A DNA stretch of 11,573 nucleotides from a virus (taxonomy: Duplodnaviria; Heunggongvirae; Uroviricota; Caudoviricetes): the IMG/VR virus record IMGVR_UViG_2703718806_000003; one strand, given 5' to 3'. Made by a program: the position numbers and the translations under genes. This document shows positions 6,419 through 11,254 of this stretch, in pieces. Below the pieces are notes generated by a model that saw only the letters and a program-made list of their open reading frames with translations, searched no databases and had not been told where the DNA came from. Numbering within the stretch: the stretch's first letter is position 1; each line of letters begins with the position of its first letter.

Positions 6419-6766
6419 ATGGTGACGAAAACCATCACTGAACAGCGTGCGGAAGTACGTATTTTTGCCGGTAATGATCCGGCTCACACTGCCACAGGCA
6501 GCAGCGGGATTTCTTCTGCAACACCGGCTCTGACGCCCCTGATGCTGGATGAAGCCAGCGGGAAACTGGTGGTCTGGGACGGACAGAAAGCCGGTAGTGC
6601 GGTTGGCATACTGGTACTGCCGCTTGAAGGCACAGAGACGGTGCTGACCTATTACAAGTCGGGGACCTTTGCGACGGAGGCAATCCACTGGCCTGAAAGT
6701 GTGGATGAACACAAAAAGGCAAACGCCTTTGCTGGCAGTGCCCTGAGTCACGCGGCTCTGCCGTAA
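6419..6766 (+). CDS. D: Head decoration protein (lambda gpD homologue), 115 aa
   Basis: Translation contains DPAHTAT, TPLMLD, KLVVWDG, AVGIL, YYKSGTF, WPE and AFAGSA in the same order as lambda gpD (~110 aa). It lies between C and E as in lambda. Confidence 0.93.
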   Translation: MVTKTITEQRAEVRIFAGNDPAHTATGSSGISSATPALTPLMLDEASGKLVVWDGQKAGSAVGILVLPLEGTETVLTYYKSGTFATEAIHWPESVDEHKKANAFAGSALSHAALP

Positions 6767-6823
6767 CACGTTATCAGGCCACTACGTTGGCCTGACTGAT
6801 TTCTTAATGAAAGGAACTGATTT

Positions 6824-7852
6824 ATGGGATTGTTTACGACCCGCCAGTTGCTCGGTTATACCGAACAAAAAGTGAAATTTCGTGCGCTGTTTCTGGAACT
6901 GTTTTTCCGCCGTACGGTGAATTTCCACACTGAAGAGGTGATGCTGGACAAAATTACCGGAAAAACGCCTGTGGCGGCCTATGTCTCCCCGGTCGTTGAA
7001 GGAAAAGTGTTGCGTCATCGTGGTGGTGAAACCCGTGTGTTACGTCCGGGCTATGTCAAGCCGAAACACGAATTTAATTACCAGCAGGCGGTTGAGCGCC
7101 TTCCTGGTGAAGATCCGACTCAACTGAACGATCAGACTTACCGCCGTCTGCGTATCATTACCGATAACCTCAAACAGGAAGAGCACGCGATTGTCCAGGT
7201 GGAAGAAATGCAGGCAGTAAATGCTGTGTTGTATGGCAAATACACCATGGAAGGAGACCAGTTCGAGAAAATTGAGGTCGATTTTGGCAGGTCGACGAAG
7301 AATAACATCACTCAGGGTAGTGGTAAGGAGTGGTCAAAACAGGATCGTGACACGTTCGATCCTACACATGATATTGATCTCTACTGCGACCAGGCCAGCG
7401 GTCTTGTGAATATTGCCATTATGGACGGTATCGTCTGGCGTCTGCTGAATGGCTTTAAGCTGTTCCGTGAAAAACTGGATACCCGTCGCGGCTCAAATTC
7501 ACAACTCGAAACGGCAGTGAAAGACCTGGGGGCGGTGGTGTCCTTCAAAGGGTATTACGGCGATCTGGCCATTGTGGTGGCGAAAACGTCTTATGTGGCA
7601 GAGGACGGTACCGAAAAACGTTATCTGCCGGAGGGCTCGCTGGTTCTGGGGAATACGGCAGCAGATGGCATTCGTTGTTACGGTGCCATTCAGGATGCGC
7701 AGGCGTTGTCCGAAGGTGTGGTGGCCTCTTCCCGTTATCCGAAACACTGGCAGACCGTGGGCGATCCGGCCCGTGAATTCACCATGACGCAGTCCGCGCC
7801 GCTGATGGTGTTGCCGGACCCGGATGAGTTTGTGGTGGTACAGGTGAAATAA
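6824..7852 (+). CDS. E: Major capsid protein (lambda gpE homologue), 342 aa
   Basis: Translation contains YVSPVVEG, PGYVKPKHE, RRLRII, AIVQVEEMQAVNAVLYGKYTMEGD, LDTRRGSNSQLETAVKDLG, GDLAIVV and GDPAREFTMTQSAPLMVLPDPDEFVVVQ, closely matching recalled lambda gpE (~341 aa). An AAAGGA ribosome-binding site lies upstream of ATG 6824. Confidence 0.95.
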   Translation: MGLFTTRQLLGYTEQKVKFRALFLELFFRRTVNFHTEEVMLDKITGKTPVAAYVSPVVEGKVLRHRGGETRVLRPGYVKPKHEFNYQQAVERLPGEDPTQLNDQTYRRLRIITDNLKQEEHAIVQVEEMQAVNAVLYGKYTMEGDQFEKIEVDFGRSTKNNITQGSGKEWSKQDRDTFDPTHDIDLYCDQASGLVNIAIMDGIVWRLLNGFKLFREKLDTRRGSNSQLETAVKDLGAVVSFKGYYGDLAIVVAKTSYVAEDGTEKRYLPEGSLVLGNTAADGIRCYGAIQDAQALSEGVVASSRYPKHWQTVGDPAREFTMTQSAPLMVLPDPDEFVVVQVK

Positions 7853-7861
7853 TCCGTGAGA

Positions 7862-7889
7862 GGGGGCGAAATGCCCCCGTGTCTTTTTT
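7862..7889 (+). terminator. Rho-independent terminator-like hairpin downstream of E: stem GGGGGC (7862-7867), loop GAAAT, stem GCCCCC (7873-7878), then T-tract at 7884-7889
   Basis: Read directly: agggggcGAAATgcccccgtgtcttttttc, starting 10 nt after the E stop codon. A perfect 6-bp G/C stem followed by a run of six T is the canonical intrinsic terminator architecture. Function is inferred. Confidence 0.5.
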
Positions 7890-7903
7890 CACTGGGGGCT
7901 GAT

Positions 7904-8278
7904 ATGGCAACGAAAGAGCAAAATCTGAAACGGCTTGATGAACTGGCCCTGATTCTGGGGCGTGAGCCGGATATTTCCGGGAGTGCCGCAGAGATAGCGC
8001 AGCGGGTGGCAGAATGGGAAGAGGAAATGCAGTCATCCGGCGATGATGTACAGGTTATGAATATGGATATCCGGGAGCGGGAAACCGCGGCTCATGATGT
8101 TCGTGGGGAAACATCCGGCGCGTTAACGCGCATCAGAGTTCTGACCTGCCTCCATCTCTGTGGCGTTGATGGTGAAACGGGGGAATCCGTTGAGCTTGCG
8201 GATGTTGGTCGGGTGATTCTGATTATGTCCTCAGATGCAAAAACACACGTTGATGGTGGAATGGCTGTTTATGCGTGA
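7904..8278 (+). CDS. FI: DNA-packaging accessory / head assembly protein (lambda gpFI homologue), ~124 aa from ATG 7904
   Basis: Position between E and FII, size near lambda gpFI (~132 aa), and an acidic N-terminal half (EWEEEMQSSGDD) are consistent. GGGGG lies about 8 nt upstream of ATG 7904. Sequence similarity to lambda FI is weak by eye, so the call rests mostly on synteny and size. The ORF-track start GTG 7856 would lie inside the terminator hairpin and is not preferred. Confidence 0.75.
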   Translation: MATKEQNLKRLDELALILGREPDISGSAAEIAQRVAEWEEEMQSSGDDVQVMNMDIRERETAAHDVRGETSGALTRIRVLTCLHLCGVDGETGESVELADVGRVILIMSSDAKTHVDGGMAVYA

Positions 8279-10382: not shown

Positions 10383-10814
10383 ATGTTTCTGAAAACAGAA
10401 CAATTTGAATATAACGGTGTGTCTGTCACGCTTTCTGAGCTGTCTGCGCTGCAGCGTATTGAGCATCTTGCCCTCCTGAAACGGCGGGCAGAAGAGGCTG
10501 AAGCCAGCGGTAACCTGCAGGTGAGCGTGGAGGACCTTGTCAGAACCGGGGCGTTTCTGGTGGCGATGTCCCTGTGGCATAACCATCCACAGAAAACGGC
10601 GTCACCGTCAATGAATGAGGCCGTGATGAAGATAGAGCAGGAAGTGCTCACCACCTGGCCTGCCGATGCCATTGCCCGGGCGGAAGACGTTGTGTTGTGC
10701 CTGTCCGGGATGATCGAAGCTGTTCGTCCGGATACTGATATCACCGAAGTGGCGAAAAATAACGCGCTGACTGATGATGATTTTTCTGCGGGAAAGTCTT
10801 CGACGGCGAGCTGA
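10383..10814 (+). CDS. G: Tail assembly chaperone (lambda gpG homologue), 143 aa
   Basis: Translation MFLKTEQFEYNGVSVTLSELSALQRIEHLALLKRRAE...RTGAFLVAMSLWHNHPQKT..PSMNEAV..IEQEVLTTWP is nearly identical to recalled lambda gpG (MFLKTESFEHNGVTVTLSELSALQRIEHLALMKRQAE...). Confidence 0.95.
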   Translation: MFLKTEQFEYNGVSVTLSELSALQRIEHLALLKRRAEEAEASGNLQVSVEDLVRTGAFLVAMSLWHNHPQKTASPSMNEAVMKIEQEVLTTWPADAIARAEDVVLCLSGMIEAVRPDTDITEVAKNNALTDDDFSAGKSSTAS

Positions 10815-11254
10815 ACTTTGCCCTCAGACTGGCGCGTGAGATGGGGAGACCCGACTGGCGCGCCATGCTTGCCGGGATGACATCCACCGAATATGCCGAC
10901 TGGCGACGTTTTTACCGCACGCATTATTTTCACGATACCCAGCTGGATATGCATTTTTCCGGGCTGACGTACGCCGTACTCAGCCTGTTTTTTTGCGATC
11001 CGGATATGCATCCCTCGGATTTCAGTCTGCTTGTCCCCCGGCGTGAGGAAGCGCAGACGGAGAGGCCGGATGAGGAAGACATGCTGATGCAGAAAGCGGC
11101 AGGACTTGCCGGAGGCGTCCGGTTCGGTGGGGAGGGAGGGGGCGATATTTCACCTTCTGCGGATGTGGTGGATGTCAGCGAGGATGATGTTGCATTAATG
11201 ATGGCTTCAGCGGGGATTTCCGGAGGTGTGAGATATGTCCCAGCCGGTTGGTGA
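10383..11254 (+). CDS. T: Tail assembly chaperone G-T fusion produced by -1 frameshift at 10790-10796; the T-frame portion ends at 11254
   Basis: The -1 frame downstream of the slippery site reads VFDGELNFALRLAREMGRPDWRAMLAGMTSTEYADW.RFY.THYFHD..LDMHFSGLTY.VLSLFF.DPDMHP.DFSLL...QKAAGLAGGVRFG, matching the T portion of recalled lambda gpGT. The T frame has no plausible independent start with a ribosome-binding site. Coordinates span both frames; the feature is not a single continuous reading frame. Confidence 0.85.
10790..10796 (+). promoter_or_regulatory. Programmed -1 ribosomal frameshift slippery heptamer G_GGA_AAG at the 3' end of G
   Basis: Read directly: gcGGGAAAGtc, with GGA and AAG in the G zero frame (10791 and 10794 are codon first positions). 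This is the same heptamer used for lambda G-T frameshifting. The -1 frame continues open from here into the T ORF. Confidence 0.85.

What the first reader, a model, noticed from the sequence alone, without database searches (positions are those of the whole stretch)
7862..7889. Intrinsic-terminator-like hairpin immediately after the major capsid gene
Ten nucleotides past the E stop codon the sequence reads GGGGGC-GAAAT-GCCCCC followed by gtgtcTTTTTTc: a perfect 6-bp G/C stem, 5-nt loop and a six-T run. It sits between E and FI, upstream of the FI ribosome-binding site. In a Q-antiterminated late operon such a structure would be read through by modified polymerase, but it could act as a 3' stabiliser of processed E mRNA or as a partial terminator, raising capsid protein expression relative to downstream genes. 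I do not recall a comparable annotated terminator at this position in lambda.
Basis: partly seen in the sequence, partly recalled or inferred. Interest (0 to 1): 0.45.

Follow-up and report, generated by a model that had tools for sequence, protein, structure and literature searches.

The report
Terminator-like hairpin after capsid gene
A small, conserved RNA stem-loop with a run of U's sits right after the major capsid gene of a phage-21-like E. coli prophage. It is a real feature, but an ordinary one: the same kind of hairpin follows this capsid gene in lambda, N15 and many other phages, and its exact job is still untested.

Summary
GGGGGC-GAAAT-GCCCCC (7862-7878) starts 10 nt after the capsid stop codon. 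Weak extra pairs extend the stem to 7858-7883, and T6 (7884-7889) follows directly (-15.0 kcal/mol). The window is not lambda. It is a phage-21-type lambdoid prophage late operon, 96% identical to phage 21, with Pfam matches to D-like, E-like and FI-like proteins.

The hairpin and T-tract are nearly invariant in about 200 relatives, while nearby synonymous sites and the FI ribosome-binding site vary. Stem changes are mostly C>U (G·U-preserving) substitutions and one-base changes in the G or C runs. Lambda, N15, phi80, an Aeromonas phage, a Chi-like phage and dozens of prophages carry unrelated hairpins at the same spot, many with U-rich tails. The N15 GenBank record already annotates its copy as a putative rho-independent terminator.

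This is therefore a new member of a known kind. My best reading has three parts:
- It terminates unmodified RNA polymerase.
- Q-modified polymerase reads through it.
- It then folds in the late transcript as a 3' protective structure that favours capsid mRNA.

None of these functions can be tested with these tools. In this window the hairpin is nearly balanced against an alternative fold that masks the FI ribosome-binding site. Relatives do not show this, so it is probably incidental. Interest is low.

The parts
6419..6766 (+). Head decoration gene (shp / lambda D-like)
   Evidence: Pfam PF02924 HDPD, E 1.3e-24. Annotated as shp in phage 21.
6774..6795 (+). Sister hairpin in the 57-nt spacer between the decoration gene and the capsid gene: UCAGGCCA-CUACGU-UGGCCUGA, then CUGAUUUCUU
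   Evidence: Second hit of the terminator scan. The 57-nt spacer folds at -15.9 kcal/mol, z = -3.1. Lambda, N15 and phi80 have a canonical terminator at the same D-E position, and N15 annotates it.
6824..7852 (+). Major capsid protein gene (phage 21 gene 7, lambda E family), stop codon TAA at 7850-7852
   Evidence: Pfam PF03864 Phage_cap_E, E 9e-65. 97% identical in protein to the capsid gene of phage-21-type phages and 61% to lambda E.
7858..7883 (+). Extended terminator-type stem-loop (GAGAGGGGGC-GAAAU-GCCCCCGUGUC). The lower stem has one mismatch and one bulge.
   Evidence: RNAfold gives -15.0 kcal/mol, z = -2.9. The phage 21 consensus, with C at 7861, gives -17.7.
7862..7878 (+). Core hairpin: perfect 6-bp G/C stem GGGGGC/GCCCCC with loop GAAAU
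   Evidence: Sequence read and top hit of the scan. Nearly invariant in about 200 relatives (pi 0.015); the substitutions within the stem are C>U (G·U-preserving), alongside one-base changes in the G or C runs.
7884..7889 (+). U-tract (T6) directly after the extended stem
   Evidence: Sequence read. Conserved, pi 0.0175; relatives have T6 or T7, with one exception (TTTATT).
7894..7899 (+). Shine-Dalgarno of the FI-like gene (GGGGGC). It repeats the 5' arm exactly, so it can pair with the 3' arm GCCCCC in an alternative fold.
   Evidence: A ribosome-binding site is annotated at this position in phage 21. The alternative hairpin is -16.8 kcal/mol. The site varies among relatives: GGAGGC, GGGGGA, GGGAGC.
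7904..8278 (+). FI-like DNA-packaging gene (phage 21 ORF1)
   Evidence: Pfam PF14000 Packaging_FI, E 1.8e-16. Phage 21 annotation.

Best explanation
This is a rho-independent-terminator-type RNA stem-loop, kept by selection in the 51-nt spacer after the major capsid gene of a phage-21-like lambdoid prophage late operon.

**Shown here:** the structure, its position, its conservation, and the recurrence of unrelated hairpins at the same place across the E-family capsid genes.

**Inferred mechanism:**
- Unmodified E. coli RNA polymerase would terminate at about 7890-7892. The element would thereby silence unscheduled transcription that enters or arises in the head genes.
- During lytic growth the Q-loaded polymerase prevents hairpin formation at its RNA exit and reads through.
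- The hairpin then folds behind the polymerase. In the full transcript the whole spacer 7853-7896 folds at about -20 kcal/mol.
- After endonucleolytic cuts downstream, this fold would act as a 3' barrier against exonucleases. That would lengthen the life of the decoration-plus-capsid mRNA segment relative to the FI/FII/tail segment.
- Any residual termination would work in the same direction. The sister hairpin after the decoration gene would do the same for that gene.
- The expected effect is a modest dosage trim on top of translational control, not the main determinant of capsid abundance.
For: **Structure and position.**. The strict motif is rare in shuffles (0.051 per window). The two largest spacers of the gene chain flank the capsid gene, and each holds a hairpin.

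**Constraint within the clade.**
- The hairpin and T-tract have pi 0.015-0.024. Synonymous sites have 0.07-0.13 locally and 0.17 over 300 nt. The adjacent Shine-Dalgarno region has 0.12.
- Stem substitutions are C>U in the 3' arm, which keep G·U pairs in the + strand RNA. No G>A change is seen in the 5' arm.

**Recurrence across the family.**
- 32 of 40 lineages with an E-family capsid gene have a hairpin of -10 kcal/mol or stronger, a median of 3.5 nt after the stop. The hairpin sequences are unrelated.
- The 50 nt after the capsid gene fold better than those after other genes of the same loci: median -17.5 against -10.8, p = 9e-10. The capsid site ranks first or second in 21 of 35 loci.
- U-rich tails occur in 18 of 32 hairpins, against 8.4% in the background.
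- The lambda-type hairpin shows compensatory changes at 3 of 7 pairs, and 0 of 500 shuffles reach the observed covariation score.

**Prior annotation and literature.**
- N15 annotates both sites as putative terminators.
- Q proteins block formation of the terminator hairpin at the RNA exit channel (bioRxiv 10.1101/651190 and PMC9388147).
- T7 has its single terminator immediately after its capsid gene, with transcript abundance dropping beyond it (PMC6938266).
- Phage L (P22-like) has a terminator at the end of its procapsid module, inside the late operon (PMC8022706).
Against: - There is no transcript 3'-end, half-life or termination data for this element or for lambda's equivalent. None was found in the searchable literature.
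- The title of Sampson et al. 1988 (PNAS 85:5439; reference seen, paper not readable) states that translation initiation controls the relative expression of lambda late genes. Any mRNA-level effect is therefore probably small.
- The perfect stem is 5 nt from the T-run, and the lower stem is weak in this window (A at 7861), so termination efficiency may be low.
- Folding energy is not exceptional for this G+C-rich DNA.
- The major tail gene V, also abundant, has no such hairpin: the 50 nt after it fold at -5.7.
- The lineages in the survey are not phylogenetically independent, so the p-values are optimistic.
Confidence: 0.5

Rival explanations
1. It is a safeguard terminator only. Its selected function is to stop RNA polymerase that has not been modified by Q, such as read-in or spurious initiation in the prophage or early in infection. 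Late structural genes would then be expressed only from the antiterminated pR' transcript. During lytic growth it would be transcribed through and do nothing.
For: - The T-tract is as conserved as the stem, as expected if termination itself is selected.
- U-rich tails are enriched across the family.
- This is one of the two hypotheses offered for intra-operon terminators in PMC8022706.
- The element lies in a prophage that is common in E. coli: 1549 of 5426 genomes.
Against: - It does not explain why the hairpins sit specifically after the two most abundant head proteins and recur there across unrelated lineages.
- 14 of 32 family hairpins have 3 or fewer U's in the next 8 nt, including the Chi-like and alphaproteobacterial cases. 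There the hairpin, not termination, is what is kept.
Confidence: 0.27
2. It is a translational control element. The spacer RNA would switch between the terminator hairpin (arm 1 with arm 2) and an alternative hairpin (arm 2 GCCCCCGUG with CAC-GGGGGC) that buries the FI Shine-Dalgarno. A ribosome terminating at the capsid UAA covers arm 1 and would favour the alternative. Heavy capsid translation would then hold FI translation down.
For: - GGGGGC occurs twice, as arm 1 and as the FI Shine-Dalgarno, and both copies are complementary to GCCCCC.
- The alternative hairpin is -16.8 kcal/mol.
- Constrained ensembles give -22.4 against -21.9 kcal/mol, with P = 0.72 against 0.28. The alternative becomes the minimum-energy fold once 7850 to about 7863 is occluded.
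- Family hairpins lie a median of 3.5 nt from the stop, within a terminating ribosome's footprint.
- In all variants an outer helix partly pairs the Shine-Dalgarno, with unpaired probability 0.25-0.47.
Against: - The near-bistability is peculiar to this window's variant. In all other variants P(terminator hairpin) is at least 0.96.
- The Shine-Dalgarno varies among relatives (GGAGGC in 34 of 120, GGGAGC in 8, AGAGGCC in 4) in ways that break the alternative pairing, with no compensating change in arm 2.
- Lambda-type hairpins have a G-rich 3' arm that cannot pair with a purine-rich Shine-Dalgarno.
- C-rich arms and G-rich Shine-Dalgarno sequences are complementary by composition alone.
Confidence: 0.1
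3. The RNA has no function. The inverted repeat would be a chance or DNA-level feature, such as a conserved linker that promotes recombination between head-gene modules at a mosaic boundary.
For: - FI is far more diverse than the capsid gene among relatives: third-position pi is 0.39 against 0.17. A module junction therefore lies nearby.
- The 61-nt context is not exceptional in energy.
Against: - The jump in diversity is at about 8030, inside FI, not at the hairpin.
- Unrelated hairpin sequences occupy the same position in many lineages, so structure is retained rather than sequence.
- Stem changes are strand-specific and G·U-preserving.
- The lambda-type hairpin shows compensatory changes.
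- The strict motif is rare in shuffles.
Confidence: 0.05

Closest known systems
Putative rho-independent terminators annotated after gene 7 (D-like) and gene 8 (major capsid) of phage N15 (NC_001901), and the unannotated equivalents in lambda and phi80
   Same: The position is the same: a few nt after the stop of an E-family capsid gene and before the FI gene. Each is a G+C-rich stem of 6-7 bp with a short loop and a pyrimidine- or U-rich tail. Each is paired with a second hairpin after the decoration gene. All lie in a Q-antiterminated late operon.
   Different: The sequence is not homologous: GGGGGC-GAAAU-GCCCCC here, against GUGGCCC-AUUC-GGGCCAC in N15 and AUGGCCC-UUCG-GGGCCAU in lambda. 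The 21-type has a cleaner U6 run, but it is set 5 nt from the perfect stem. The sister hairpin after the decoration gene is a weaker terminator here than in lambda or N15.
T7 terminator Tphi, immediately after major capsid gene 10
   Same: It is a terminator-type hairpin directly after the most abundantly expressed capsid gene, inside a long co-directional gene array. Transcript abundance drops beyond it while downstream genes are still expressed (PMC6938266).
   Different: Tphi acts on T7 RNA polymerase, and read-through comes from incomplete efficiency rather than from a processive antiterminator. Its function is shown experimentally; none is shown for the element here.
Intra-operon terminator at the end of the procapsid module of P22-like phage L
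   Same: It is a predicted intrinsic terminator inside a single-promoter, antiterminated late operon, after the capsid-assembly genes. [quoted passage not shown] They propose partial termination or blocking of spurious transcription (PMC8022706).
   Different: The capsid gene family is different (P22 coat protein, not lambda E family) and the sequence is unrelated.
Intercistronic 3' stabiliser hairpins in bacterial polycistronic mRNAs, such as the REP elements in malE-malF (own knowledge, not tested here)
   Same: It is a stable stem-loop at the 3' end of the cistron whose product is needed in excess over the downstream cistrons.
   Different: No resemblance to REP was noted by eye (not tested). 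This element has a U-tract. Differential decay has not been shown for it.

Membership tests
Rho-independent (intrinsic) transcription terminator | G+C-rich RNA stem-loop on the transcribed strand | tested here: met
   Perfect 6-bp G/C stem with a 5-nt loop. The extended stem folds at -15.0 kcal/mol, z = -2.9. This is within the range of lambda tR' (-26.4), lambda D-E (-12.2) and the N15 annotated sites (-13.5, -14.3).
Rho-independent (intrinsic) transcription terminator | U-tract immediately 3' of the stem | tested here: inconclusive
   U6 is present, but it starts 5 nt after the perfect stem. It abuts the stem only if the weak lower pairs form (A-U, A-U, G-C, with one bulge and one mismatch). 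The lower stem is stronger in the phage 21 consensus, which folds at -17.7. The pattern scan accepts the site.
Rho-independent (intrinsic) transcription terminator | Non-coding location downstream of a gene, in the direction of transcription | tested here: met
   It lies in the 51-nt spacer between the capsid stop (7852) and the FI start (7904), on the + strand. No terminator-like site is found on the - strand here.
Rho-independent (intrinsic) transcription terminator | RNA polymerase actually releases the transcript there (3' ends at about 7890), and the release is sensitive to Q | not testable with these tools
   This needs in vitro transcription with and without Q, or Term-seq. No such data were found in the library.
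Hairpin after E-family (PF03864) capsid genes in lambdoid late operons, as annotated in N15 | Located a few nt after the stop of a PF03864 capsid gene and before the FI-like gene | tested here: met
   Pfam assignments. The same arrangement is seen in N15, lambda, phi80 and 32 of 40 surveyed lineages.
Hairpin after E-family (PF03864) capsid genes in lambdoid late operons, as annotated in N15 | Sequence homology to the lambda/N15 hairpin | tested here: not met
   The alignment shows an unrelated stem and loop sequence. The element is a positional and functional analogue, not a homologue.
Curated RNA families (Rfam 15) | Match to any covariance model | tested here: not met
   No match at E up to 1 anywhere in the window.
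mRNA 3' stabiliser or segmental-decay element | The upstream mRNA segment outlives the downstream segment, and this depends on the hairpin | not testable with these tools
   Only the structure and its position after the two most abundant head proteins are shown. Half-life measurements are needed.

The most novel reading that the evidence does not exclude
The hairpin after E-family capsid genes would be an old post-transcriptional device that does not depend on termination and is gated by the ribosome finishing the capsid gene. Two observations fit this. The hairpin persists in lineages that lack a U-tract. It almost always lies within the footprint of a terminating ribosome, a median of 3.5 nt from the stop. 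In this window's variant the spacer is nearly balanced (0.72 against 0.28) between the terminator fold and a fold that buries the FI ribosome-binding site. Capsid translation could then directly set FI translation or the protection of the 3' end.
Probability: 0.12. Interest if true: 0.5.

Novelty: new member of a known kind. Interest (0 to 1): 0.2.

Why it matters
Intra-operon terminators in antiterminated phage late operons are widely seen, but their roles are stated to be unknown (PMC8022706). This work adds a comparative point. A hairpin directly after the E-family capsid gene, and usually another after the decoration gene, is retained across very distant phages while its sequence turns over. 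Within the phage-21 clade it is more conserved than synonymous sites. That makes it a clean and cheap target for a mutational test of whether such hairpins tune capsid dosage, insulate prophage late genes, or both. For annotation, the element is missing from the phage 21 records inspected and from the region of the lambda RefSeq record inspected. The capsid-FI junction that carries it has close matches in about 29% of complete E. coli genomes. A specialist would not find it surprising.

Tried and rejected
- **Rfam scan of the whole window:** nothing at E up to 1.
- **Energy-only scanning with 34-nt windows on both strands:** not discriminating. Many coding hairpins are stronger.
- **The simple terminator scan:** it misses lambda's documented tR' and lambda's D-E terminator. 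Its silences are therefore not evidence of absence.
- **Conserved two-state switch (terminator fold against Shine-Dalgarno-masking fold):** rejected as a conserved feature. The Shine-Dalgarno varies without compensation, and relatives fold at least 96% into the terminator hairpin.
- **Recombination linker or mosaic boundary:** the boundary is at about 8030, inside FI, not at the hairpin.
- **Covariation within the 21-type hairpin itself:** not obtainable. The clade is too uniform, and the next relatives (Providencia, Trabulsiella, Serratia, Buttiauxella; 66-80% capsid identity) already carry different hairpins.
- **Literature:** ten searches found no 3'-end mapping or half-life data for the lambda or phage 21 capsid-FI junction. 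Four papers could not be read: Liu et al. 2013 (tried by DOI and PMC id), Casjens & Hendrix 2015 and Sampson et al. 1988.
- **Fraction of the 2293 E. coli places that carry the hairpin:** not counted. The E. coli search was by similarity over a 181-nt query, not by the hairpin itself.
- **Published terminator scores (d'Aubenton-Carafa, TransTermHP, ARNold):** not available here, and not computed from memory.

Full report
**1. What is in the sequence**

The capsid gene ends with TAA at 7850-7852. Nine bases later come GGGGGC (7862-7867), the loop GAAAT, and GCCCCC (7873-7878). GTGTC, TTTTTT (7884-7889) and C follow. The next gene starts at ATG 7904, preceded by GGGGGC (7894-7899).

RNAfold extends the stem outwards to 7858-7883 through G-C, A-U and A-U pairs, with one mismatch and one bulged G. 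The U-tract then directly abuts the stem. This 33-nt element folds at -15.0 kcal/mol (z = -2.9; 0 of 200 shuffles fold as well). It is the best hit of the terminator pattern scan.

I defined a strict version of the motif: a perfect stem of at least 6 bp with at least 5 G/C pairs, a 3-8 nt loop, and T5 or more within 6 nt. It occurs once on the + strand. The expectation is 0.051 per dinucleotide-shuffled window on both strands.

Energy alone is not remarkable. The 61-nt context has z = -1.26, and a sliding 34-nt scan finds many stronger hairpins inside coding regions. What is unusual is the combination of a G/C stem, a T-run and the location. The site lies in one of only two spacers longer than 50 nt in a gene chain that otherwise overlaps or abuts.

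**2. What the window is**

The window is not lambda. It is 96% identical to phage 21 (M81255, OL657228) across the capsid-FI junction. The three genes around the element match three Pfam families:
- 6419-6766: head decoration protein D
- 6824-7852: major capsid protein E
- 7904-8278: packaging protein FI

The capsid protein is 97% identical to that of phage-21-type phages and 61% identical to lambda E. The exact variant of the junction occurs in a lambdoid prophage of E. coli UC4224. There the lysis genes lie upstream and the tail genes downstream, all in the same orientation. Close matches to the junction are found in 1549 of 5426 complete E. coli genomes. Neither phage 21 record annotates a terminator at this site.

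**3. Conservation in close relatives**

I examined 84 loci found through the capsid protein and 120 found through an anchor upstream of the hairpin.
- The hairpin and T-tract are nearly invariant.
- The stem variants seen are C>U in the 3' arm (GCCTCC, GCTCCC) and one-base length changes in the G or C runs. The C>U changes keep a G·U pair in the + strand RNA.
- No G>A change occurs in the 5' arm.
- The base just 5' of the core stem is C in nearly all relatives, where it pairs with G7879 and gives -17.7 kcal/mol. It is T in one relative. It is A only in this window's variant.

Diversity per site, measured across 75 haplotypes:

| Region | pi |
|---|---|
| Stem-loop | 0.015 |
| T-tract | 0.0175 |
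| Capsid third-codon positions, locally | 0.07-0.13 |
| Capsid third-codon positions, over 300 nt | 0.17 |
| FI Shine-Dalgarno region | 0.12 |
| FI third-codon positions | 0.39 |

Positions 7841-7860 were fixed by the anchor used to collect sequences and are not informative. The hairpin and T-tract were not part of the anchor. The element is therefore under purifying selection, and the pattern of allowed changes points to the sense-strand RNA.

**4. The same place in other phages**

Lambda has AUGGCCC-UUCG-GGGCCAU followed by UGUUUCUCU, starting 2 nt after the E stop. The same scan flags it as terminator-like. Other lineages carry their own hairpins:
- N15: GUGGCCC-AUUC-GGGCCAC
- phi80: GUGGCCC-UGUC-GGGCCAC
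- Aeromonas phage PhAER-5: a 14-bp hairpin with a U-rich tail
- Chi-like phage KFS-SE1: an 11-bp hairpin without a U-tract

The N15 record annotates a "putative rho-indep. transcription terminator" after both gene 7 (D-like) and gene 8 (capsid).

A scan of one genome per species gave about 35 further non-redundant prophages. Results over the 40 lineages in total:
- 32 have a single hairpin of -10 kcal/mol or stronger, a median of 3.5 nt after the stop.
- 18 of those 32 have at least 4 U's in the next 8 nt, against 8.4% of background 8-mers.
- The 50 nt after the capsid gene fold better than the 50 nt after the other genes of the same loci. The medians are -17.5 and -10.8 kcal/mol (Mann-Whitney p = 9e-10). 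The capsid site ranks first or second in 21 of 35 loci.
- The nearest capsid relatives outside the 21 clade (Providencia 80%, Trabulsiella 79%, Serratia 68%, Buttiauxella 66%) each carry a different hairpin. Sequence turns over while structure stays.
- In the lambda-type hairpin, 3 of 7 pairs show changes on both sides, 95% of cells are paired, and 0 of 500 shuffles reach the observed covariation score.

The lineages are not independent, so the p-values are optimistic. The pattern is nonetheless clear.

A sister hairpin lies between the decoration and capsid genes here (6774-6795; the spacer folds at -15.9). At the same place lambda, N15 and phi80 have a textbook terminator, AAAGCCGC-CUGY-GCGGCUUUUUUU.

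**5. How it most likely works**

*Shown:* the element is a selected, terminator-shaped RNA hairpin placed directly after the gene for the most abundant virion protein.

*Inferred:*
- With ordinary RNA polymerase it should terminate near 7890-7892, provided the weak lower stem forms.
- Late genes are transcribed by Q-loaded polymerase (PMC10695390). Q forms a nozzle on the RNA exit channel that precludes terminator hairpin formation (bioRxiv 10.1101/651190; PMC9388147). The site is therefore read through.
- In the read-through transcript the whole spacer folds into a long interrupted hairpin, 7853-7896, of about -20 to -25 kcal/mol in all variants.
- I consider a 3' exonuclease barrier the most likely lytic-phase role. 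It would prolong the decoration-plus-capsid mRNA segment, and any residual termination would add to the effect.

This matches the hypotheses stated for such intra-operon terminators, whose roles are said to be unknown (PMC8022706). It also parallels T7, where Tphi sits right after capsid gene 10 (PMC6938266).

Three points count against a large effect:
- The title of Sampson et al. 1988 attributes differences in lambda late-gene expression to translation initiation (reference seen; paper not readable).
- The major tail gene has no such hairpin.
- No 3'-end or half-life data were found.

**6. Rivals**

*Safeguard terminator only.* This fits the conserved T-tract. It does not explain the specific placement after the capsid and decoration genes, or the family members without U-tracts.

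*Translational switch.* GGGGGC occurs twice, as arm 1 and as the FI Shine-Dalgarno. The 3' arm GCCCCCGUG can pair with CAC-GGGGGC at -16.8 kcal/mol, which buries the Shine-Dalgarno. In this window the two folds are nearly iso-energetic, with P = 0.72 against 0.28. Occluding arm 1, as a terminating ribosome would, makes the alternative the minimum-energy fold. However, all other variants fold at least 96% into the terminator hairpin. The Shine-Dalgarno also varies (GGAGGC, GGGAGC, GGGGGA, AGAGGCC) without compensation. The near-balance is therefore probably a side effect of this variant's A at 7861 and of a G-rich Shine-Dalgarno.

*Neutral or DNA-level linker at a mosaic boundary.* The jump in diversity is at about 8030, inside FI, not at the hairpin. 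Unrelated hairpins recur at the same place in other lineages.

**7. Comparison with what is known, and verdict**

The element works like an intrinsic terminator and meets the structural criteria for one. One geometric point is inconclusive: the U-tract is 5 nt from the perfect stem. It is a positional analogue of the hairpins after the capsid genes of lambda, N15 and phi80, not a sequence homologue. It matches no Rfam family.

It is a new, unannotated member of a known kind, common in E. coli prophages, with function still untested. Interest is low. The comparative survey shows that this hairpin position is a conserved and tractable test case for the open question of what intra-operon terminators do in antiterminated phage operons.

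Noticed in passing
window 6774-6795 (spacer 6767-6823): A second hairpin (UCAGGCCA-CUACGU-UGGCCUGA, then CUGAUUUCUU; the spacer folds at -15.9 kcal/mol) lies between the decoration gene and the capsid gene, so the capsid gene is bracketed by hairpins. Lambda, N15 and phi80 have a canonical terminator (AAAGCCGC-CUGY-GCGGCUUUUUUU) at the same place, and N15 annotates it.
   Followed up: partly
window 10831-10864: This is the strongest 34-nt hairpin on the + strand (GGCGCGUGAGAUGGGGAGACCCGACUGGCGCGCC, -23.2 kcal/mol). It lies 17 nt after the G stop codon and about 35 nt after the G-T frameshift site GGGAAAG (10790-10796), inside the T reading frame. The 50 nt after the G stop fold about as strongly in lambda (-22.4) and in an Enterobacter prophage (-26.2). 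It seems too far from the slippery site to be a classical frameshift stimulator, and its role is unclear.
   Followed up: partly
window 4808-4791 (minus strand): A terminator-like site lies on the antisense strand inside the portal gene: CCGGAC-GTGAGA-GTCCGG followed by CTTTTT. Apart from the finding itself, it is the only site that passes the strict motif, which is expected 0.05 times per shuffled window.
   Followed up: no
window 7861 and 7893: This window has A at 7861, where about 200 relatives have C and one has T. It has T at 7893, where they have A. The A weakens the lower stem (-15.0 against -17.7 kcal/mol) and makes the spacer nearly bistable (P = 0.72 against at least 0.96 in relatives). 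The exact variant is found in three E. coli genomes (UC4224, UC4315, UC4316).
   Followed up: yes
loci L098-L113, L132, L136, L138, L141-L156 and others (genome-contig hits): Many low-coverage contigs from unrelated taxa carry what appears to be lambda's own capsid region: Kitasatospora, Neobacillus, Leeuwenhoekiella, an Akkermansia MAG, Corynebacterium and Prevotella, among others. All match the window's capsid at the same 61% as lambda E, and L098 has lambda's hairpin sequence. These look like lambda DNA contamination of the assemblies, not prophages.
   Followed up: no
window about 8030 onward (inside the FI-like gene): Diversity among relatives jumps from about 0.1-0.2 to about 0.43 per site at about 8030. 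This marks a mosaic recombination boundary in the middle of the FI-like gene rather than at a gene border.
   Followed up: partly
L087 (phi80, NC_021190) 2536-2988: The annotated start of the phi80 FI gene (locus position 2536) lies just upstream of the hairpin that follows the capsid gene, so the annotated ORF runs through the hairpin. An ATG at about 2573, preceded by GGAG and matching the N15 start, is a more likely start codon.
   Followed up: no
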